Below, piece after piece: positions 213 through 59,210 of a DNA stretch of 64,000 nt. The notes below the pieces were generated by a model, which worked only from the letters and a program-made list of their open reading frames with translations, had not been told where the DNA came from and did not search any database. Source of the stretch: an uncultured Oscillospiraceae bacterium (GTDB lineage: Bacteria; Bacillota; Clostridia; Christensenellales; Aristaeellaceae); the NCBI GenBank assembly GCA_964345895.1, contig CAYFSQ010000001.1:6456-70455 (forward strand), written 5' to 3'. The position numbers and the translations under genes were made by a program. Numbering within the stretch: the stretch's first letter is position 1; each line of letters starts with the position of its first letter.

Positions 213-1778
213 CTACAGGGCGATAACCCGTGTTGCCACCTTATCCACAAAACGTTGGTCGTGCTCGACAAAGACCAGGGTGGCATCGGTATTCACAAGA
301 AGATTTTCAATCTGCTCCCTGCTTTCCAGGTCGATATAGTTAAGGGGTTCATCCCACAGATACAGGTGCGCTTGCTGCGCCAAGGATGCGGCAAGCAGCA
401 CCTTTTTCTTTTGCCCAAGGGAGTATCCGGCCATGGAGCGGTCAAAGGCTTCCCTGGGGAAGTCCAGCTTGCGCAGCAGCGTCAGAAAGAAATCTGTTTC
501 AAGCTGAAGCTGCATGGCATAATCATAGGGAGAGCCTGCAAGGTGGTCACTTAGCTGGGGCAATATAGATAGGACGATGTTCTGAGGGCCGGTGATGCGC
601 CCCTTCATCAGCGGCAGGATGCCTTGCAGCGTTTTAAGCAGGGTGCTTTTTCCTGCGCCGTTTTTACCCGTAATGGCAATCCTTTCGCCCTGGCCGATAT
701 CTGCGGAAAAGTTGGACAACACAGGCACACCCTGATACCCCACCGTGATTTCATGGAGCCTCAGCAGCTTGTTTGCCCTGTGCTTCAGGGGGTGCAGCTT
801 TAATTCCGCCGTATATTCCAGGTTCTTCAGCAATCCTTCCTTTTCTTCCACCTGTTTCTGGATGCGGTTTTGCAGGCTGATGGCACGCTGCATCATGCGG
901 GCGCTTTGGGCGCCCACAAAGCCGCGGTCGTGGACATGCTGCCCGATTTTGCTGCGCTCTACCTGGTCGCTCCACTGGCGCTTTTCTGCAGCGGAGGCCT
1001 TTAAACGGCCGATATCTTTGCTGATACGGGCATTTTTCTCCCTGTCAGCCATGTCCTGCTGCTGCTTGTTGGCAGCATAGGAGGAATAGGTGCCCTGCTC
1101 AATGCGGATGCCCTGCTTTTGCAGCGCCATGATGTGGTCGCAGCTTCTGTCCAGAAAATCCCGGTCATGGGAAACCAGCAGAAAGCCCGTCTGGCTGTGC
1201 AGATACTCTGCCACTTTTCTGCGGCCCAAATAATCCAGATGGTTGGTGGGCTCGTCAATCAGGAGGAAGTTGTTCTTTTTCAGAAACAAAGCGCAGAGCA
1301 TCATGCGGGTGCGCTCCCCAGGGCTGAAGGTGGCAAAGGGGCGGGTAAGCTGCTCCGGGTCAAGATCCATGCGGGCAACTTCCCGTCTGATCAGTTCGTT
1401 GATGATGTATCCGTCTTGCTGGGCATACAGTTGCTCCAGCTGCCCCCAGCTTTCCAGGTCGCCCCCTGGCTGAAGGTGCCGCTGCATATCCTCTTCCCAT
1501 TGGTCAAAGGGTGCAATGATGCTGCGCATGACATCAAGGGCGCTGCGCTCTTCATCCACAGGGCAGGGGAAGAGGCTGAAGGAAAGGGGCGTCTGGATGG
1601 TGCCTTTGCCCTGCAGTTCACCTGCCAACAGGCGCAGCAGGGTGGTTTTGCCCCGGCCGTTGCGCCCCACCAGGCCCAGGCGCCAGGAAGAATCCATATG
1701 AAAGGAAAGGTTATCAAACACCGGTACATAGCTACCGGGATAGGTGAAGGATAATTGATGTACTTGTATGATGGACAT
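213..1778 (-). CDS. ABC-F ATPase, Lsa-like (candidate antibiotic-resistance/ribosome-protection type)
   Basis: ORF track 213..1796, trimmed to ATG 1778 with AGGAGG at 1783-1788. Two ABC cassettes (Walker A GRNGRGKTT and GKNGAGKST; signature-like SPGERTR and SLGQKKK) joined by a long charged linker, with no TM domain. The N-terminus WRLGLVGRNGRGKTTLLRLL resembles Lsa-family ARE ABC-F proteins. Confidence 0.85.
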   Translation of the reverse strand: MSIIQVHQLSFTYPGSYVPVFDNLSFHMDSSWRLGLVGRNGRGKTTLLRLLAGELQGKGTIQTPLSFSLFPCPVDEERSALDVMRSIIAPFDQWEEDMQRHLQPGGDLESWGQLEQLYAQQDGYIINELIRREVARMDLDPEQLTRPFATFSPGERTRMMLCALFLKKNNFLLIDEPTNHLDYLGRRKVAEYLHSQTGFLLVSHDRDFLDRSCDHIMALQKQGIRIEQGTYSSYAANKQQQDMADREKNARISKDIGRLKASAAEKRQWSDQVERSKIGQHVHDRGFVGAQSARMMQRAISLQNRIQKQVEEKEGLLKNLEYTAELKLHPLKHRANKLLRLHEITVGYQGVPVLSNFSADIGQGERIAITGKNGAGKSTLLKTLQGILPLMKGRITGPQNIVLSILPQLSDHLAGSPYDYAMQLQLETDFFLTLLRKLDFPREAFDRSMAGYSLGQKKKVLLAASLAQQAHLYLWDEPLNYIDLESREQIENLLVNTDATLVFVEHDQRFVDKVATRVIAL

Positions 1779-54128: not shown

Positions 54129-54202
54129 AGTGCGCAAGCCTTGCGCTTTGCGGACAGTTATGGTATGATTCATGTCGTTGATTTGAAAGAGAGGGATTGA
54201 CT

Positions 54203-54439
54203 ATGTCCGGTATTCAATTGGTGATGACCATTCTGCTGATGATTTCAGCCCTTGTGCTGATTGGATCTGTATTGCTGCAAAAGGGTGATGCTGAAGGTAT
54301 TGCCGCCTTAGGTGCATCCACGGGCGAAAGCTATTTCGGCCGCAACAAGGAAAAGTCTGCCCAAGGCAAGCTGGCGCAGCTGACCAAGGTATCCGCTGGC
54401 GTGTTCGTTGTGCTGACGCTGGCCATGCTGTTCATCTAA
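54203..54439 (+). CDS. secG: Preprotein translocase subunit SecG
   Basis: Trimmed to ATG 54203. Two TM segments flanking LLQKGDAEGIAALGAS..., typical SecG. Confidence 0.85.
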   Translation: MSGIQLVMTILLMISALVLIGSVLLQKGDAEGIAALGASTGESYFGRNKEKSAQGKLAQLTKVSAGVFVVLTLAMLFI

Positions 54440-54515: not shown

Positions 54516-56438
54516 TTGATTGTCCTCAGTGCCCAGCAAGTAAGCAAAGCCTTTGGCGTCCATCAGGTATTGAAGGACGTCAGTTTTGTGCTGCAAACTG
54601 GGCAGCGTATGGGCCTGGTGGGCGTCAATGGCTCGGGCAAAAGCACGCTGCTTCGGCTGATTACCGGGGAACTGTCCATAGACGGCGGCAGCATCAGCCT
54701 GCAAAGGGGCATGCGGGTGGGGTACCTTGCCCAAAGCTGGCGGCCTGACAGTGGCTCTACGGTGCTGGATGAGCTGGAAAAGGTGTTTGAGCCTGTGCGA
54801 TTGCTGGAAGAGAAGATGCGCAGCCTGGAGCAGCAGATGGCCCATACCCTGGATGCTCAAGAGCTGGAACGCCTGGGAAATGACTATGCCCGGACCATGC
54901 ACCTCTTTGAGGAAGGGGATGGCTATGCCCGGCATTCTTTGGTGCAGGGCGTGCTGTCCGGCCTCGGTTTTCTAAATGCCCAGCATCAGGAGGCCGCCAA
55001 GCTAAGCGGGGGCGAGCTGACCAGGCTCAGCCTGGGGCGGCTGCTTTTACAAAAACCCGATATCCTGTTGCTGGACGAGCCCACCAACCACCTGGACCTG
55101 GATGCCCTTAAATGGCTGGAGGAGTATTTATCCTCCTACCCCGGCGCTGTGATGCTGGTCAGCCACGACCGGTACTTTTTAGACAGGGTCTGCACCGATA
55201 TGGTGGAGCTGTTAATGGGGGAAAGTGAGCAGTATAAGGGCAACTATTCAAGGTATATGGAGCAGCGGGTAGAGCGGTTCGAGTCCCGCCGCCGTGCCTT
55301 TGACCAACAGCAAAAGGAGATAGAGCGGCAGGAGGCCATCATTGAGCGGTTCCGCTCCTTCAACCGTGAAAAATCCATCCGTGCCGCGGAAAGCCGCGTT
55401 AAAAAACTGGAAAAGATGGAGCGGCTCAGCAAGCCTTCGGAGGAAAAACAGATTCACTTCCGCTTCACTGCCCGCAGGCGGATGGGGGAGGAAGCGCTGA
55501 AGGTGAAGGGCATGGAAAAGTCCTTCGGTGACAAACAACTGTTTGAGAATGCCTCCCTGTTTCTTGAGTCTGGCGACCGCGCCATCCTGATAGGCGCAAA
55601 TGGCATTGGCAAGACCACCTTCCTGGAATGCCTGCTGGGGCGGCAGCAGCCGGACAAGGGCATTGTAGACTTTGGCACCAATGCAGATATCGGCTACTAC
55701 GACCAGAAGCAGCAGCGGCTCCATGATGAAAAAAATGTCATCAACGAAGTTTGGGACGATTTTCCCCGCATGACCCAGACAGAGGTGCGCAGCGCCTTGG
55801 GGCTGTTCCTCTTTAGCGGGGATGAAGTGTTTGACAAGGTGTCTACCCTGTCCGGCGGCGAAAAGGCGCGGGTAGCGCTGACCAAGCTGATGCTGCGCAA
55901 AGACAATTTCCTGATCCTGGACGAACCCACCAACCACCTGGATGCTGACAGCAGGGAAATGCTGGAGGAAGCCCTGGAGGATTTTGACGGGACCATTCTG
56001 GCCGTATCCCATGACCGATACTTTATCAACCGTCTTGCCAACAAGGTGGTGGTGATGCACAAGGATGGCCTGGTCGTCTATGAGGGCAACTACGATGAGT
56101 ATCTTATACAGAAGGAACGGCAGGACAATGGGGATGGGGTTGCCTTCAGCGGCATCACCCGCACAGAGATTGCCAAACAGCGCAGAAAAAGCCGGGAAGA
56201 ACAGAATCTATACAATCGCCTGAAAAATGCGGTGCAGGAAGCGGAAAAGGCTGTTATCCAGGCAGAAGAGGCCAAAGAGCAGCTGGAAGAAAGCATGGCA
56301 GACCCGGAGGTCTACACCAACCCGGACAGGGCACAGGAGGTGGCCAAGGCCTACCAGCAAGCCAAGCAAGAAACCGAAAACGCTTATGCTGTTTGGGAAA
56401 AAGCGGAGGAAGCCCTGCTTGCTTTTGAGGAAGAATGA
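54516..56438 (+). CDS. ABC-F family ATPase (Uup/YdiF-like) with C-terminal coiled coil
   Basis: TTG start 6 nt after AGGAG. Walker A GVNGSGKST and GANGIGKTT, LSGGE signatures, no TM domain, charged C-terminal helix. Confidence 0.9.
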   Translation: MIVLSAQQVSKAFGVHQVLKDVSFVLQTGQRMGLVGVNGSGKSTLLRLITGELSIDGGSISLQRGMRVGYLAQSWRPDSGSTVLDELEKVFEPVRLLEEKMRSLEQQMAHTLDAQELERLGNDYARTMHLFEEGDGYARHSLVQGVLSGLGFLNAQHQEAAKLSGGELTRLSLGRLLLQKPDILLLDEPTNHLDLDALKWLEEYLSSYPGAVMLVSHDRYFLDRVCTDMVELLMGESEQYKGNYSRYMEQRVERFESRRRAFDQQQKEIERQEAIIERFRSFNREKSIRAAESRVKKLEKMERLSKPSEEKQIHFRFTARRRMGEEALKVKGMEKSFGDKQLFENASLFLESGDRAILIGANGIGKTTFLECLLGRQQPDKGIVDFGTNADIGYYDQKQQRLHDEKNVINEVWDDFPRMTQTEVRSALGLFLFSGDEVFDKVSTLSGGEKARVALTKLMLRKDNFLILDEPTNHLDADSREMLEEALEDFDGTILAVSHDRYFINRLANKVVVMHKDGLVVYEGNYDEYLIQKERQDNGDGVAFSGITRTEIAKQRRKSREEQNLYNRLKNAVQEAEKAVIQAEEAKEQLEESMADPEVYTNPDRAQEVAKAYQQAKQETENAYAVWEKAEEALLAFEEE

Positions 56439-56465
56439 GGCGTTTCACCTTTTCCATACAAGCGG

Positions 56466-56494
56466 TTGACAAACTGTTTTTTATGCATTATAAT
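56466..56494 (+). promoter_or_regulatory. Consensus SigA-type promoter of the met leader-metNIQ unit
   Basis: TTGACA (56466-71), exactly 17 nt, TATAAT (56489-94). Confidence 0.7.
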
Positions 56495-56528
56495 GCGCCC
56501 AAGACCGAAGAAGAAAGGAGGCTTCCAC

Positions 56529-56606
56529 ATGAAAACTACCATGATGATGCGAATGTCCATGATGATGTGCGAGGCTTCCCCGCGCTTCTTCTGTTGCGTC
56601 GCTTAA
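56529..56606 (+). CDS. 25-codon Met/Cys-rich leader ORF (MKTTMMMRMSMMMCEASPRFFCCVA)
   Basis: AAAGGAGG (56514-21) 7 nt before ATG. 7 of codons 5-13 are AUG, and there are 3 Cys codons. Stop TAA 56604-06. It sits between the promoter and the terminator preceding metN. Not in the ORF track. Confidence 0.6.
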   Translation: MKTTMMMRMSMMMCEASPRFFCCVA

Positions 56607-56626
56607 TCTGGTTTTAGATGATATAA

Positions 56627-56659
56627 GCCCGCTTCGCGAAGTGCGATAGCGGGCTTTTT
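56627..56659 (+). terminator. Intrinsic terminator (attenuator) between the leader ORF and metN
   Basis: GCCCGCUUCGC-GAAGU-GCGA(U)AGCGGGC (11 bp, one bulge) followed by UUUUU. Confidence 0.8.
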
Positions 56660-56683
56660 ATGTCTGTTGGAAGGGAGAAAGCA

Positions 56684-57703
56684 TTGGCTTCTGAAAAGAA
56701 AACACCCCTGATTGCCATTCGAAACCTGTCAAAAACCTACCAAGGCACCGATGGGGAGATTAAAGCCCTGGACGGGGTAACGCTGGAAGTAAGGGAGAAG
56801 GAAATCTACGGCATCGTCGGCATGAGCGGGGCGGGAAAATCGACGCTGATCCGCTGCATGAACCGCCTTGATACACCCAGCGGCGGAGACGTCCTCTACA
56901 AGGGGCAAAGCATCCTGACCATGAACCCCAGCGAACTGATTGCCACCCGGCGCAAGGTCAGCATGATTTTTCAGCAGTTCAACCTCTTTATGCAGCGCAC
57001 GGTGGGACGGAATGTGCGCTATCCACTGGAGTTAAGCGGCGTTCCCGCCAAGGAGGCGGAGGAAAGGGTACGGGAGCTGCTGAAGATTGTCGATCTGGAA
57101 GACAAGATCAACGCGTACCCAGCCCAATTATCCGGTGGACAAAAGCAGCGTGTAGCCATCGCCCGTGCCCTGGCCAATGAGCCCGAAGTGCTGCTGTGCG
57201 ACGAGGCCACAAGTGCCCTGGACCCGATGACTACCCAATCCATTCTGTCCCTGCTGAAGGGCATTAACCAGCGTCTGGGCATTACCATTGTCATCATTAC
57301 CCACGAGATGGCGGTCATCCGCCAGGTATGCACCAGGGTGGCCATACTGGATGGCGGCAGGGTTGCGGAAGAAGGGCCGGTGGATGAGGTATTCCTCCAC
57401 ACCAAGTCCGACGCAGGCAGGCGGTTGTTCGGCATCCTGCCCGAAACTCCCGATGAAGATCCCGGCGTCCCCGCCATGCGCATCGTGTTTGACGGCACCG
57501 CCCGGGAGAAGCCCATCATCGCGACCCTCATTAAGCAGCATGGTGTCATGGTGAACATCCTGTCCGCCAACATGAAGCATCTGGGCGGCAAAATGTACGG
57601 CCAGATGCTGATTGAAACCCCGGAGGATGCGCAGGAAAAGCTGCTGGTGACAGAATACCTGACCAAGCAAGGCCTGACGGTAAAGGAGGTGAATGAGAAA
57701 TGA
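56684..57703 (+). CDS. metN: Methionine ABC transporter ATP-binding protein
   Basis: Walker A GMSGAGKST, LSGGQKQR and a C-terminal NIL domain. The start is probably in-frame TTG 56684 (GGGAG 6 nt upstream). The track ATG 56660 lies in the terminator U-tract with no SD. Confidence 0.9.
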   Translation: MASEKKTPLIAIRNLSKTYQGTDGEIKALDGVTLEVREKEIYGIVGMSGAGKSTLIRCMNRLDTPSGGDVLYKGQSILTMNPSELIATRRKVSMIFQQFNLFMQRTVGRNVRYPLELSGVPAKEAEERVRELLKIVDLEDKINAYPAQLSGGQKQRVAIARALANEPEVLLCDEATSALDPMTTQSILSLLKGINQRLGITIVIITHEMAVIRQVCTRVAILDGGRVAEEGPVDEVFLHTKSDAGRRLFGILPETPDEDPGVPAMRIVFDGTAREKPIIATLIKQHGVMVNILSANMKHLGGKMYGQMLIETPEDAQEKLLVTEYLTKQGLTVKEVNEK

Positions 57704-58362
57704 GCATGGAAACAATGATTCCCCTGTTATGGCAAGGCTTACTGGAAACCCTGGAGATGACCATCCCCGCGACTTTGTTTTCCTACCTCATTGGTATGCC
57801 CCTGGGCATCCTCCTGGTGGTGACGCGCAAGGATCACATCATGCCCAACATCAAGCTCAATGCCATCCTCGGCACCATTGTTAACTTCCTGCGCTCCATT
57901 CCATTCATCATCCTGCTGGCGATGCTCTTTCCTGTAACCCGCATCGTGATGGGCCGCGCCATCGGGACCCGCGCCATCATCTTCCCCCTGATTATCAGCG
58001 CATTTCCCTATGTTGCCCGCATGACGGAGGGGGCCCTCATCGAGGTGGACCGAGGCATCATCGAAGCAGCCCAGTCCATGGGCTCCACCAACAGCCAGAT
58101 TATCTTCAAAGTGCTGATTCCCGAAGCCATGCCCTCCATCATCAACGGCGCTGCCATCAGCATGGTTAACATCCTTGGTTATACCGCCATGGCCAGCGCG
58201 GCAGGCGGCGGGGGATTGGGATCCATCGCCATCATCAAAGGCATCAACATCCGCAAGTTGGATGTCATGTATGCGGCCAGCATCCTGCTGGTGTTCCTGG
58301 TACAAACCATCACCGTTACCGGCACAGGTGTGTCGAAAAAAATAGATCACAGAAGTCGCTAA
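57700..58362 (+). CDS. metI: Methionine ABC transporter permease
   Basis: 220-aa, 5-TM BPD-type permease. ATGA overlap with metN. Confidence 0.9.
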   Translation: MSMETMIPLLWQGLLETLEMTIPATLFSYLIGMPLGILLVVTRKDHIMPNIKLNAILGTIVNFLRSIPFIILLAMLFPVTRIVMGRAIGTRAIIFPLIISAFPYVARMTEGALIEVDRGIIEAAQSMGSTNSQIIFKVLIPEAMPSIINGAAISMVNILGYTAMASAAGGGGLGSIAIIKGINIRKLDVMYAASILLVFLVQTITVTGTGVSKKIDHRSR

Positions 58363-58379
58363 TTTGGAAGGAGACTCCC

Positions 58380-59210
58380 ATGAAAAAGACCATCGCATTG
58401 GTACTTACCCTTATCCTGGCCCTCAGCGCCGTCACCGCCCTTGCAGCAGAAAAGCTGACCATTGGTGCTACCTCCAACCCCCACTACATCATCCTGGACT
58501 TTGTCAAGGACGACCTGAAAGAACTGGGCTACGACCTGGAGCTGGTCGAGTTCTCAGACTATGTGCTGCCCAACCAGGCCACCGCTGCCGGCGAATTAGA
58601 CGCCAACTTCTTCCAGCACAAACCCCACATGGTGGCCTTCAACACTGAAGTGCCAGAGAACGAGCAGTTAGTAGAAGTTCTGGGCGTGCACTATGAGCCC
58701 TTTGGCATCTACCCCGGCACAAAGAAATCCCTGGACGACATCACCAAAGGCGATAGCGTGCTGGTACCCAACGACCCCTCCAACGAAGCGCGTGCCCTGT
58801 TCCTCCTTCAGGACAAAGGCCTGATTACCCTGCCGGAGAACGCACAGCTGACCGATAAGCTGACCAAGCTGGACGTGGTGGACAACCCCTACGAATTGGA
58901 ACTGGTGGAAGTGAACGCAGAGCTGATTCCCTCCATGCTGGAAGATGCCAGCTTCGCCACCATCAACGGCAACTATGCCATCGCCGCAGGCTTCAGCCCT
59001 GCCAAGGATTCCCTGTTCCTGGAGCCGGTGGATGGCACCAGCGGCCAAACCTACATCAACTACGTTGTTGTTCGCCAGGATAAAGTGAATGAGCCCTTCG
59101 TGGAAGCGCTGAAAAAGGTGCTCTTCACTCAGAAGGTGAAGGAATTCATCGAAAACAGTGAAGACTTTGGCGGCGGCGTCATCCCCGTGTTCGAGGTTCC
59201 CGCCCAGTAA
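58380..59210 (+). CDS. metQ: MetQ/NlpA family methionine-binding protein
   Basis: Signal peptide followed by the KLTIGATSNPH...FQH.P pattern of MetQ/NlpA. No Cys anywhere, so no lipobox. Confidence 0.9.
   Translation: MKKTIALVLTLILALSAVTALAAEKLTIGATSNPHYIILDFVKDDLKELGYDLELVEFSDYVLPNQATAAGELDANFFQHKPHMVAFNTEVPENEQLVEVLGVHYEPFGIYPGTKKSLDDITKGDSVLVPNDPSNEARALFLLQDKGLITLPENAQLTDKLTKLDVVDNPYELELVEVNAELIPSMLEDASFATINGNYAIAAGFSPAKDSLFLEPVDGTSGQTYINYVVVRQDKVNEPFVEALKKVLFTQKVKEFIENSEDFGGGVIPVFEVPAQ

What the first reader, a model, noticed from the sequence alone, without database searches (positions are those of the whole stretch)
56466..56686. Met/Cys-rich 25-codon leader ORF plus terminator in front of metNIQ: candidate ribosome-mediated methionine attenuator where an S-box/T-box is expected
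Seen in the sequence:
- Consensus promoter TTGACA-17-TATAAT (56466-94).
- SD AAAGGAGG 7 nt before ATG 56529.
- ORF MKTTMMMRMSMMMCEASPRFFCCVA, in which 7 of the 9 codons 5-13 are AUG and 3 codons are Cys.
- 20 nt after its stop, an 11-bp GC-rich hairpin (56627-54) followed by U5.
- The metN SD and a likely TTG start (56684) come immediately after the terminator.
- Inside the ORF, just after the Met run, GCG(A)GGCUU (56569-77) can pair (8 bp, one bulge) with AAGCCCGC (56625-32), which is the 5' flank/arm of the terminator. This gives a possible antiterminator.
- The 9-mer GAGGCTTCC occurs twice: as the leader SD (56518-26) and inside the ORF (56571-79).

Established knowledge: the trp, his, leu, thr, ilv and pheA leader-peptide attenuators have this same promoter / short ORF with regulatory-codon run / terminator layout. 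Methionine uptake and synthesis genes in Firmicutes are classically controlled by SAM-I (S-box) riboswitches or Met T-boxes. I cannot see the conserved cores of either in this roughly 160-nt leader.

Inference: translation of the AUG run reports Met-tRNA(Met) charging (and possibly Cys) and sets termination versus readthrough into metNIQ.

I do not know of a described Met-codon leader attenuator.

Caveat: I could not derive a fully self-consistent ribosome-position / alternative-fold logic by eye. A ribosome stalled at codons 11-13 would cover the proposed antiterminator strand, while a stall at codons 5-9 would not.
Basis: partly seen in the sequence, partly recalled or inferred. Interest (0 to 1): 0.85.

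Follow-up and report, generated by a model that had tools for sequence, protein, structure and literature searches.

The report
Methionine-codon leader peptide attenuator of metNIQ
A tiny upstream gene packed with methionine codons, followed by a transcription stop signal, most likely lets the ribosome itself report methionine shortage and switch on methionine uptake and synthesis genes in many gut-type Clostridia, a form of control not previously worked out for methionine.

Summary
A 12/12 consensus promoter, a strong SD, the 25-codon ORF MKTTMMMRMSMMMCEASPRFFCCVA and a -22 kcal/mol hairpin with U5 lie directly upstream of metN-metI-metQ. No Rfam family (SAM riboswitches, T-box) matches, although the same scans found SAM-I in front of metN in four other genomes. 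About 30 related or independent leaders from Clostridia genomes and metagenomes keep an SD, an in-frame Met run (usually with a Cys codon) and their own terminator, while the rest of the peptide drifts and even changes frame. The same device precedes metY-metA biosynthesis operons. I revise the RNA logic. Instead, the last ORF codons (56584-56605) pair with the terminator 5' arm and loop (56624-56642), with covariation as good as the terminator's own. The repeated 9-mer marks the two strands of a conserved helix (P1) that pairs the leader's SD/AUG with RNA after the Met run and acts as anti-antiterminator. A ribosome held in the Met run breaks P1 and frees the antiterminator; a ribosome at the stop codon covers it. 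The only precedent found is an untested 'metL' annotation in Streptomyces lividans. No experiment exists. Verdict: new variant of a known kind.

The parts
56466..56494 (+). Sigma-70-type promoter: -35 TTGACA (56466-71), 17-nt spacer, -10 TATAAT (56489-94)
   Evidence: 12/12 consensus match. Equivalent TTGACA..TAtaAT promoters precede the homologous leaders.
56514..56521 (+). Shine-Dalgarno sequence of the leader ORF (AAAGGAGG), 7 nt before the AUG. It also forms part of the P1 5' strand.
   Evidence: Sequence. A GGAGG-type SD 6-10 nt before the start is present in all 24 leaders tabulated.
56529..56606 (+). Leader ORF, 25 codons plus stop: MKTTMMMRMSMMMCEASPRFFCCVA
   Evidence: Intact homologous ORFs occur in L001-L007, L081-83, L088, L161-166 and L176.
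56541..56570 (+). Regulatory codons: Met run (codons 5-13, 7 AUG of 9) followed by Cys codon 14 (UGC 56568-70)
   Evidence: The Met run is conserved as in-frame AUG codons. Indels inside the run are multiples of 3. A Cys codon lies within or next to the run in about 20 of 24 leaders.
56507..56530 (+). P1 5' strand: GAAGAAG (56507-13) and GGAGGCUUCCACAU (56517-30). It includes the SD and the first two bases of the start codon.
   Evidence: MFE fold (5' domain -32.0 kcal/mol). Cognate versus swapped duplex test: 0 of 5000 permutations reach the cognate mean. Explicit duplexes with compensatory spacers.
56565..56591 (+). P1 3' strand: AUGUG(C)GAGGCUUCC (56565-79) and CUUCUUC (56585-91). It holds the second copy of the 9-mer. 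P1 acts as anti-antiterminator and sequesters the leader SD.
   Evidence: It overlaps the antiterminator 5' strand at 56584-91, so the two are mutually exclusive.
56567..56585 (+). P2: local hairpin immediately after the Met run (-8.8 kcal/mol), followed by a U-rich stretch. Candidate RNA polymerase pause hairpin (inferred).
   Evidence: Predicted when the SD region is occupied. RNAalifold consensus with 4 compensatory pairs. Flagged as a hairpin plus T-rich tail.
56584..56605 (+). Antiterminator 5' strand, in the last 7 codons of the ORF: GCUUC (56584-88), UG (56592-93), GCG (56596-98), GCUUA (56601-05)
   Evidence: Truncated-transcript folds (-14.8 kcal/mol). Independent RNAalifold prediction. 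Pair counts: 82.4% of cells paired, 8 of 11 pairs with changes on both sides, 0 of 500 shuffles reach the covariation score. CTTCTT and TTGCG are conserved in different reading frames.
56624..56642 (+). Antiterminator 3' strand = terminator 5' arm plus loop: UAAGC (56624-28), CGC (56630-32), CG (56635-36), GAAGU (56638-42)
   Evidence: This explains why the terminator loop sequence GAAGU is conserved.
56625..56659 (+). Intrinsic terminator: 5' arm 56625-37, loop 56638-42, 3' arm 56643-56 (bulged U 56647), U-tract 56655-59
   Evidence: -22.0 kcal/mol. 86.2% of cells paired, 7 of 13 pairs with changes on both sides, 0 of 500 shuffles.
56669..56686 (+). metN ribosome-binding site (GGAAGGGAG 56669-77) and likely TTG start (56684-86)
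   Evidence: Homologues start about 20-25 nt after the U-tract and have stop codons in the upstream frame.
56684..59210 (+). Regulated operon: metN (56684-57703), metI (57700-58362), metQ (58380-59210)
   Evidence: Pfam: ABC_tran+NIL, BPD_transp_1, Lipoprotein_9/NlpA.

Best explanation
This is a ribosome-mediated (leader-peptide) transcription attenuator specific for methionine, and probably for cysteine as well. It controls the methionine ABC importer metNIQ. Transcription starts at the consensus promoter. A ribosome loads on the leader SD while RNA polymerase moves on; a hairpin just after the Met run (P2) may pause the polymerase (inferred). If charged tRNA-Met (or tRNA-Cys, for codon 14) is scarce, the ribosome stalls in codons 5-14. 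A ribosome sitting there prevents helix P1 (SD/AUG region 56507-30 with 56565-91) from closing. It leaves the last ORF codons (56584-56605) uncovered. These pair with the terminator's 5' arm and loop (56624-42) as they emerge, the terminator cannot form, and metNIQ is transcribed. If Met is plentiful, the ribosome runs to the stop codon (56604) and covers the antiterminator's 5' strand. The terminator (56625-56, U5) then forms and transcription stops at about 56659. With no ribosome, or after the ribosome is released, P1 forms. P1 locks up both the CUUC part of the antiterminator and the leader's own SD, so the default state is OFF. What is shown: the parts, their conservation, their covariation and their mutual exclusivity. 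What is inferred: stalling, timing, pausing and the actual response to methionine.
For: (1) The anatomy is confirmed. (2) No known RNA family matches, with positive controls found elsewhere. (3) The Met-run ORF is conserved. All 7 closest MetN relatives have it, as do at least 5 sequence-unrelated subfamilies; about 30 leaders were found in all. Each has an SD, an in-frame Met run and its own terminator 17-57 nt after the stop codon. (4) Coding signature: indels inside the run are multiples of 3. After the run the peptide is not conserved, and the conserved blocks CTTCTT and TTGCG are read in different frames. (5) Regulon: homologous M/C-rich leaders plus terminators precede metY-metA (L016), metY-metN (L091) and metY-metA-PALP-metN (L167, L169). 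(6) Antiterminator: it is predicted in truncated transcripts only when the ribosome is in the run. Across 24 leaders, 72% of the terminator 5' arm plus loop is captured, against 24% with the ribosome at the stop codon, and the capturing strand always lies in the last ORF codons. RNAalifold recovers it independently. Covariation score is 0.383 against a shuffled mean of 0.229 (0 of 500 shuffles); 82% of cells are paired against 33-49% when the partner is slid. This is comparable to the terminator. (7) P1: cognate duplexes average -23.6 kcal/mol against -17.8 for swapped partners (0 of 5000 permutations; rank 1 of 22 in 7 leaders). Compensatory spacers are visible. (8) The leader and SAM-I never co-occur in the 80 genome loci.
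Against: There are no experimental data of any kind, and all relatives are MAG or metagenome sequences. At equilibrium the terminator wins whatever the ribosome position, so the model depends on kinetics. That is also true of E. coli trp, which I state from my own knowledge. The antiterminator is irregular and modest in energy: -14.8 against -22.0 kcal/mol. In the window itself its energy gain is not significant against shuffles (0.15 of shuffles do as well; the median across leaders is also 0.15). The AT structure was derived from these same sequences, which inflates the slid-partner control, and relatedness inflates the shuffle control. P1 hides the leader's SD, so severe Met starvation, which also limits fMet-tRNA, would lock the system OFF; this is awkward for a starvation sensor. 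The Cys codon UGC is part of the structural strand AUGUGCG in the window type, so Cys sensing cannot be separated from RNA constraints.
Confidence: 0.78

Rival explanations
1. Arrest-peptide sensor. The conserved nascent peptide (M-M-M-R-M-x-M-M-C) stalls the ribosome from inside the exit tunnel in response to free methionine, SAM or another small molecule, as TnaC does with tryptophan. tRNA-Met charging would not be the signal. The RNA switch downstream would be the same.
For: Within the window subfamily the run is conserved as a peptide motif, with a recurrent Arg or other charged residue inside it (MMMRM, MCMRMMC, MMMRLM). The same M/C/R theme appears in S. lividans metL.
Against: Across subfamilies only the Met (and Cys) codons are shared; spacing and the other residues differ freely. 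A ligand-induced stall would switch the operon ON when Met or SAM is high, which is the wrong sign for uptake and biosynthesis genes under the RNA logic found here. The simple hungry-codon model explains everything seen.
Confidence: 0.07
2. RNA-only element. The leader is a new riboswitch or tRNA-binding RNA (for example AUG triplets pairing with the CAU anticodon in a T-box-like way, or a new SAM or Met aptamer) and the ORF is incidental.
For: There is strong nucleotide-level conservation in the window subfamily, including inside the ORF. Three covarying helices exist. The P1 helix hides the SD, as if translation were not wanted.
Against: No Rfam match even at E<=10. Every subfamily, although unrelated in sequence, keeps a strong SD at the correct spacing, a start codon, an in-frame AUG run and a stop codon placed at the antiterminator strand. 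Indels in the run are multiples of 3. The run lies in a weakly structured loop with no conserved aptamer-like core. No T-box sequence is present.
Confidence: 0.06
3. Protein-mediated attenuation. A TRAP-like or other RNA-binding protein, activated by Met or SAM, binds the repeated AUG triplets and decides between terminator and antiterminator.
For: Repeated triplets in a leader followed by a terminator resemble the B. subtilis trp leader (own knowledge). Some related metN loci appear to use a protein-type promoter box instead.
Against: The spacing between AUG triplets is always 0, 3 or 6 nt, as codons would be. TRAP sites have 2-3-nt spacers (own knowledge). The SD, start and stop codons are conserved. 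No candidate regulator gene is linked in the window or in the loci.
Confidence: 0.04
4. Independent small gene. The ORF encodes a functional Met/Cys-rich micro-protein (for example metal-binding or membrane-active) with its own terminator. Its position before metN is a neighbourhood effect and is not regulatory.
For: It has a strong promoter, SD and terminator of its own. Cys-rich C-termini (FFCCVA, CLCCVA) recur in some members.
Against: The peptide sequence after the run is not conserved and changes frame. ORF length ranges from 19 to 54 codons. The ORF is always placed between a promoter and a methionine gene that has no promoter of its own. It is also found before metY. The terminator is coupled to an alternative pairing with the ORF's own 3' end.
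Confidence: 0.03

Closest known systems
Classical leader-peptide transcription attenuators of amino-acid operons (E. coli/Salmonella trpL, hisL, leuL, thrL, ilvL, pheL; also His and Leu leaders in Firmicutes, PMC2965389 and PMC5794164)
   Same: [quoted passage not shown] There is an antiterminator whose 5' strand is free when the ribosome stalls at the run and covered when it reaches the stop codon, plus an upstream helix (like 1:2) that competes with the antiterminator. The terminator is more stable than the antiterminator, so control is kinetic.
   Different: The regulatory codon is AUG, which has a single codon and is shared with initiation; methionine has not been on the list of attenuator-controlled amino acids. 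A Cys codon usually accompanies the run. The '1' strand is the leader's own SD/start region, not the regulatory codons, so the run sits in the loop of P1 and P1 also shuts off leader translation. The device controls an uptake ABC transporter as well as biosynthesis genes.
'metL' leader peptide upstream of metNIQ in Streptomyces lividans TK24 (Droste et al. 2021, PMC8079986)
   Same: A short ORF before metNIQ with alternating Met, Cys and Arg (..GARCMCRRMCAF), called a methionine attenuator by its authors.
   Different: It is only an annotation from RNA-seq. It is leaderless, only 3 internal Met codons are present, no typical terminator was found ('termination is unclear'), and there was no comparative or mechanistic analysis. 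Homology to the Clostridia leaders was not tested here.
Poly-Cys leaderless sORF attenuators of mycobacteria (Canestrari et al. 2020, bioRxiv 10.1101/834739)
   Same: A short upstream ORF enriched in a sulfur amino acid's codons senses tRNA charging through ribosome stalling. Several operons share the device (the 'ribulon' idea).
   Different: [quoted passage not shown] They are leaderless and sense Cys only. Here there is a canonical SD, an intrinsic terminator with a U-tract, and Met as the main codon.
Met-specific T-box (e.g. S. aureus met leader RNA, PMC3771891) and SAM-I/S-box riboswitches
   Same: They occupy the same position (5' leader with terminator) and do the same job for metNIQ, metY and metI-type genes in Firmicutes. 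The T-box also reads tRNA-Met charging and not SAM.
   Different: They have no translated ORF and depend on conserved RNA cores that Rfam detects. Those cores are absent here but were found in L021, L026, L027 and L075. The leader and SAM-I are mutually exclusive among the loci examined.

Membership tests
Ribosome-mediated leader-peptide transcription attenuator | Short ORF with a functional-looking SD and start codon, between the promoter and the first structural gene | tested here: met
   AAAGGAGG lies 7 nt before ATG 56529, and the promoter is at 56466-94. The same holds in all 24 tabulated leaders.
Ribosome-mediated leader-peptide transcription attenuator | Run or enrichment of codons for the amino acid that the downstream operon supplies | tested here: met
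   7 AUG in codons 5-13 precede a methionine importer. Such density is essentially confined to met-gene leaders in about 1 Mb of control sequence.
Ribosome-mediated leader-peptide transcription attenuator | Regulatory codons conserved while the rest of the peptide drifts | tested here: met
   The frame changes after the run, and indels within the run are multiples of 3.
Ribosome-mediated leader-peptide transcription attenuator | Intrinsic terminator between the leader ORF and the first gene | tested here: met
   56625-56659, -22 kcal/mol plus U5. It covaries and is present in every leader.
Ribosome-mediated leader-peptide transcription attenuator | Mutually exclusive antiterminator that is free when the ribosome is at the regulatory codons and masked when it is at the stop codon | tested here: met
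   56584-56605 x 56624-56642. This is computational only. The energy gain is individually modest: 0.15 of shuffles do as well in the window.
Ribosome-mediated leader-peptide transcription attenuator | Upstream helix competing with the antiterminator (anti-antiterminator or pause hairpin) | tested here: met
   P1, 56507-30 x 56565-91, -32 kcal/mol for the domain. Partner-specific covariation. The pause function was not tested.
Ribosome-mediated leader-peptide transcription attenuator | Readthrough increases on starvation for the cognate amino acid and requires leader translation | not testable with these tools
   Needs Term-seq, reporter assays or in vitro coupled assays.
SAM-I (S-box) and other SAM/SAH riboswitches | Match to the conserved aptamer core (Rfam covariance models RF00162 etc.) | tested here: not met
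   No hit at the gathering threshold in the whole window or at E<=10 in 56380-56780. Positive controls score 88-94 bits in L021, L026, L027 and L075.
T-box leader | Stem I with specifier loop, plus the conserved T-box sequence forming the antiterminator bulge (RF00230) | tested here: not met
   No hit, or in any of the 80 genome loci.
Translational attenuator (ermC-type; mycobacterial poly-Cys sORFs) | [quoted passage not shown] | tested here: not met
   A canonical terminator with a U-tract separates the leader from the metN SD. In the equilibrium fold the metN SD is only partly paired and not with the Met run. An added translational effect is not excluded.
Conserved functional micro-protein | Amino-acid sequence conserved over its length, with a constant reading frame | tested here: not met
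   Only the Met/Cys core is conserved. The C-terminal halves differ in frame and length.

The most novel reading that the evidence does not exclude
The device is a dual sulfur-amino-acid sensor (Met plus Cys codons) with a built-in single-round gate. P1 closes the leader's own SD after the first ribosome has passed. The decision then depends on one pioneer ribosome and also reports the capacity for initiation (fMet-tRNA). The recurrent charged residue inside the run (MRM/MEM) would tune stalling through the nascent chain. This would be a form of attenuation that integrates initiation, elongation and peptide-tunnel effects for the one amino acid that both starts and extends proteins. It would define a methionine 'ribulon' (metNIQ, metY-metA, possibly DUF218/GNAT genes) across gut Clostridia and perhaps Actinobacteria.
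Probability: 0.2. Interest if true: 0.8.

Novelty: new variant of a known kind. Interest (0 to 1): 0.62.

Why it matters
Methionine has been the notable gap among amino acids controlled by leader-peptide attenuation. Textbook control of Met genes is by MetJ/MetR, S-box, T-box or MtaR-type regulators. This result indicates that a whole set of Clostridia use the ribosome itself as the sensor for methionine uptake and synthesis. The set includes lineages labelled Oscillospiraceae, Christensenella, Faecalibacterium-like and Peptostreptococcaceae, and many of them are gut organisms known only from metagenomes. The device reads tRNA-Met charging and not SAM. It also raises mechanistic questions: how AUG runs avoid internal initiation, how a Met sensor copes with Met-dependent initiation, and what an SD-sequestering anti-antiterminator adds. 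Practically, it would improve annotation of 5' leaders in gut MAGs, give a compact Met-responsive expression switch, and show that Rfam-negative leaders before met genes need not be 'unregulated'.

Tried and rejected
(1) Equilibrium folding with a 27-nt ribosome mask at each codon: the terminator forms with probability of about 0.96 at every position. This does not discriminate between states, so I replaced it with folds of transcripts truncated before the terminator's 3' arm.
I rejected it as the conserved switch, although its invariant GCG:CGC part cannot be excluded.
(3) RNAalifold on a MAFFT alignment of the 5' domain did not recover P1, because the SD-to-AUG spacer varies in length and is misaligned. 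I used an alignment-free cognate-versus-swapped duplex test instead.
(4) Searching the protein database with the leader peptides: the query was too short at first. A padded profile then gave only 3 hits, because such ORFs are rarely called as genes. Two of them gave new members and context.
(5) Looking for a closer relative or the source organism: the best MetN identity is 73% in genomes and 68% in metagenomes, so the organism is not identified beyond Clostridia of the Oscillospiraceae/Christensenella type.
(6) Looking for a cultured, named strain carrying the Faecalibacterium-type leader: only MAG and metagenome proteins appeared among the best 120 hits.
(7) Eight literature searches found no description of a methionine leader-peptide attenuator apart from S. 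lividans metL. Subscription-only papers are not covered.
(8) Four of six additional metY loci (L168, L170, L171, L172), and also L008-L010, L012 and L175, have no such leader. The device is therefore lineage-specific and not universal.
Full report
OBSERVATION.
- TTGACA-17-TATAAT lies at 56466-56494. It scores 12/12 and is the only perfect promoter-like site in the 6 kb scanned.
- AAAGGAGG (56514-21) lies 7 nt before ATG 56529.
- The ORF 56529-56606 encodes MKTTMMMRMSMMMCEASPRFFCCVA.
- A 13-bp GC-rich hairpin (56625-56656, -22.0 kcal/mol) is followed by T5 at 56655-59.
- The next genes are metN (ABC_tran+NIL), metI (BPD_transp_1) and metQ (NlpA lipoprotein).
- metN most likely starts at TTG 56684, behind GGAAGGGAG. 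In the homologues the frame that would run back through the terminator contains stop codons.
- The leader folds better than all 200 dinucleotide shuffles (z = -3.8).

IT IS NOT A KNOWN RNA FAMILY. Rfam finds nothing in the whole window at the gathering thresholds. In 56380-56780 at E<=10 it finds only noise, mostly matches to the terminator (best E = 0.17, 22.9 bits against a cut-off of 50). The method works: SAM-I riboswitches scoring 88-94 bits lie directly upstream of metN in L021, L026, L027 and L075. Among the 80 closest metN loci from GTDB genomes, 4 have SAM-I and none has a T-box. Thirteen have a Met-run leader, and L016 has one before metY. No locus has both a leader and a riboswitch.

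THE MET-RUN ORF IS CONSERVED. I fetched metN loci from 185,579 species genomes and from metagenomes. All seven closest relatives (64-73% MetN identity, L001-L007) carry a short ORF between a TTGACA/TATAAT-type promoter and a terminator. Examples are MKQTAMMMQMMMCEGSPRFFGCVPLS, MRQMMMRMPMMCVIPVPCF and MRSMMMRMPMMCVISDPVLLALR.

Other subfamilies differ in nucleotide sequence but keep the same plan:
- L011, L084-86, L092: ..KKSMAMMMRLMYMSDAAWSC..
- L013, L014, L173, L174: MKFATMMMNMMMNMMMPMCMCRMSMF.. (L013 is labelled Faecalibacterium)
- L015, L017, and L070 (labelled Peptostreptococcaceae)
- L007, L083, L176: TNLCAMSMNMMRA..

Each of the 24 tabulated leaders has a GGAGG-type SD, an in-frame Met run and its own intrinsic terminator (-9 to -27 kcal/mol) 17-57 nt after the stop codon. 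Such Met density is rare. In about 1 Mb of control sequence (80 loci, both strands) it occurs 13 times. Ten of these are the leaders upstream of metN, one is a leader in front of metY, and the other two are antisense by-products of metI and metN codons.

Inside the run, length differences between homologues are multiples of three. After the run the peptide is not conserved, and the conserved nucleotide blocks CTTCTT and TTGCG are read in different frames in the window (..FFCCVA*) and in L002 (..LLGLR*). So the 5' half is constrained as Met codons and the 3' half as RNA.

REGULON. In L016 a homologous leader, MRKNQAMCMRMMCMAMPCAPVCVRIL, has its own promoter, SD and terminator. It is divergent from metN and precedes metY (Cys_Met_Meta_PP) and metA (HTS). 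L091 reads leader-metY-metN. L167 and L169 read leader-metY-metA-PALP-metN. In L089 a leader precedes DUF218 and GNAT genes. A database peptide (P0003, MYATMMMRMSEMCVMNDPVLLVLR) sits in SecG / ABC-F / leader / metNIQ / hisS, which is the window's own synteny. The device therefore marks both methionine uptake and methionine synthesis operons. Some relatives lack it: L008-10, L012 and L175 have a promoter box and no terminator, and L168 and L170-172 also have no leader.

RNA LOGIC. At equilibrium the terminator forms whatever the ribosome position. From my own knowledge this is also true of E. coli trp, where 3:4 is about -20 and 2:3 about -12 kcal/mol. The relevant question is therefore what captures the terminator's 5' arm before the 3' arm exists.

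In truncated transcripts with a ribosome held in the Met run, the last ORF codons pair with the terminator 5' arm and loop. The 5' strand is GCUUC 56584-88, UG 56592-93, GCG 56596-98 and GCUUA 56601-05. It pairs with GAAGU 56638-42, CG 56635-36, CGC 56630-32 and UAAGC 56624-28 respectively (-14.8 kcal/mol). With the ribosome at the stop codon that strand is covered, and none of the terminator arm is captured.

Over 24 leaders the captured fraction is 72% with the ribosome in the run and 24% with it at the stop codon. The capturing strand always lies in the last ORF codons. Against shuffles the energy gain is modest (median rank 0.15; 0.15 in the window), but it is individually significant in L088, L011, L084, L092, L013, L017 and L089.

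RNAalifold, given only the truncated region, predicts the same three helices, with 8 of 14 pairs showing compensatory changes. On alignment A2 the antiterminator has 82.4% of cells paired (33-49% when the 3' partner is slid), 8 of 11 pairs with changes on both sides, and a covariation score of 0.383 against a shuffled mean of 0.229 (0 of 500 shuffles). That is as good as the terminator: 86.2%, 7 of 13 pairs, 0.279 against 0.159. It also explains why the terminator loop GAAGU is conserved.

P1. The minimum-energy fold pairs GGAGGCUUCCACAU (56517-30: SD, spacer and the AU of the start codon) with AUGUG(C)GAGGCUUCC (56565-79). It also pairs GAAGAAG (56507-13) with CUUCUUC (56585-91). The domain energy is -32.0 kcal/mol.

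The helix exists in all 18 leaders examined (-13 to -24 kcal/mol), with compensatory spacers:
- L082: GGGAUCAAA with UUUGAUCCC
- L004: GGGAUCGAAAU with AUUUCCGAUCCC
- L006: GGGAUUUGGA with UCCAGAUCCC
- L092: GUCACGACC with GGUCGUG

In an alignment-free test, cognate partners average -23.6 kcal/mol against -17.8 for swapped partners. No permutation out of 5000 reaches the cognate mean, and seven leaders rank first of 22.

P1's 3' strand contains the CUUC of the antiterminator, so P1 is an anti-antiterminator. It also hides the leader's own SD. A local hairpin, P2 (56567-85, -8.8 kcal/mol), followed by a U-rich stretch and conserved with compensatory changes, is a candidate pause site. That role is inferred only.

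MODEL.
- Stalled in codons 5-14 (Met, and perhaps Cys14, scarce): P1 cannot close around the ribosome, the antiterminator strand is free, and transcription reads through.
- At the stop codon (Met plentiful): the antiterminator strand is covered and the terminator forms.
- No ribosome: P1 forms, the terminator forms, and the leader SD is closed.
With the A site on codon 13, about 11 nt downstream are covered (to about 56576), which stops short of the true antiterminator strand at 56584.

The parts, their conservation, their covariation and their mutual exclusivity are shown. Stalling, timing and the response to methionine are inferred.

COMPARISON AND NOVELTY. The device works like the classical trp/his/leu/thr/ilv/phe attenuators, and it meets every sequence-level criterion of that class (see the membership table). 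Only the physiological test is missing. It differs in four ways:
- The regulatory codon is AUG.
- A Cys codon accompanies the run in about 20 of 24 leaders.
- The anti-antiterminator uses the leader's SD.
- An importer is among the targets.

Eight full-text searches found one precedent: an untested 'metL' annotation (..GARCMCRRMCAF) before metNIQ in S. lividans, with no clear terminator (PMC8079986). The mycobacterial poly-Cys sORFs are translational attenuators (bioRxiv 10.1101/834739). The S. aureus 'met leader' is a T-box. The attenuator survey of Naville and Gautheret lists no Met leader peptide. Subscription-only literature was not searchable.

VERDICT. It is a new variant of a known kind. 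Confidence in the ribosome-mediated Met attenuator is about 0.78, and confidence in the exact antiterminator pairing is lower, at about 0.6. Interest is 0.62. The mechanism class is classic, but methionine was the missing amino acid. The family is widespread in poorly studied gut Clostridia, and the SD-sequestering helix and the Met/Cys pairing are unusual.

Noticed in passing
window 54197-54439 and 54516-56438 (+); L161-L166: A SecG-like gene and an ABC-F ATPase (two ABC_tran domains, ABC_tran_Xtn and a C-terminal domain) lie immediately upstream of the leader promoter. The order SecG / ABC-F / leader / metNIQ / hisS is conserved in a related lineage. I see no sign that the ABC-F is part of the switch.
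   Followed up: partly
L008, L009, L010, L012 (about 2880-2960), L016 (about 2925-2990, metN side), L175 (about 1400-1470): metN loci that lack the leader and terminator share a promoter box, TTGACA..GCATCGTGTATGATGACGGCACATTC, with a short 5' UTR. It may be an operator for a protein regulator that replaces the attenuator.
   Followed up: no
L089 2152-2235 (- strand) and genes 1268-2200, 677-1255 (-): A Met-run leader (MKRVSTMRMFMMCEEMSIALLGLHGNA) with a -27 kcal/mol terminator precedes a DUF218 (YdcF-like) gene and a GNAT acetyltransferase, divergent from metN. These may be additional members of the regulon with an unknown link to methionine.
   Followed up: partly
window 58179-58325 (- strand); also L001: A Met-rich 48-codon ORF (..NLRMLMPLMMAMDPNPPPP..) lies antisense to metI and is conserved in L001. 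It has no SD or terminator context and is best read as a by-product of conserved metI codons.
   Followed up: partly
L167 2501-6293; L169 2501-6323; L172: Operons metY-metA-PALP-metN lie behind the leader. The PALP-family gene (cysteine synthase or threonine synthase type) sits between metA and metN. This hints at a combined sulfur-assimilation and methionine unit.
   Followed up: no
L176 1-1219 and about 1330-1500: An S-adenosylhomocysteine hydrolase gene ends about 280 nt before a leader-metNIQ unit. This MetN variant was seen on more than 20 contigs.
   Followed up: no
window 56550-56552 (CGA, codon 8); equivalent positions in most leaders: A charged residue, usually Arg, sits inside the Met run in most subfamilies (MMMRM, MCMRMMC, MMMRLM, MFMRMCM, CMCRMSM) and in S. 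lividans metL (CMCRRMC). I have no explanation. It could tune stalling or avoid internal initiation.
   Followed up: no
window 56660-56662: An ATG directly after the terminator U-tract opens the longest metN ORF (347 aa). It has no SD, and in the homologues the corresponding frame is closed by stop codons, so automatic annotation may mis-call the metN start.
   Followed up: yes
L019 about 2830-2890 and L093 about 2330-2390: Upstream of metN in an Anaerobutyricum-like lineage, an inverted repeat AGAGACTACAC..GTGTGGTCTCT followed by T6 overlaps the putative promoter. There is no ORF and no Rfam hit. Its nature is unknown.
   Followed up: no
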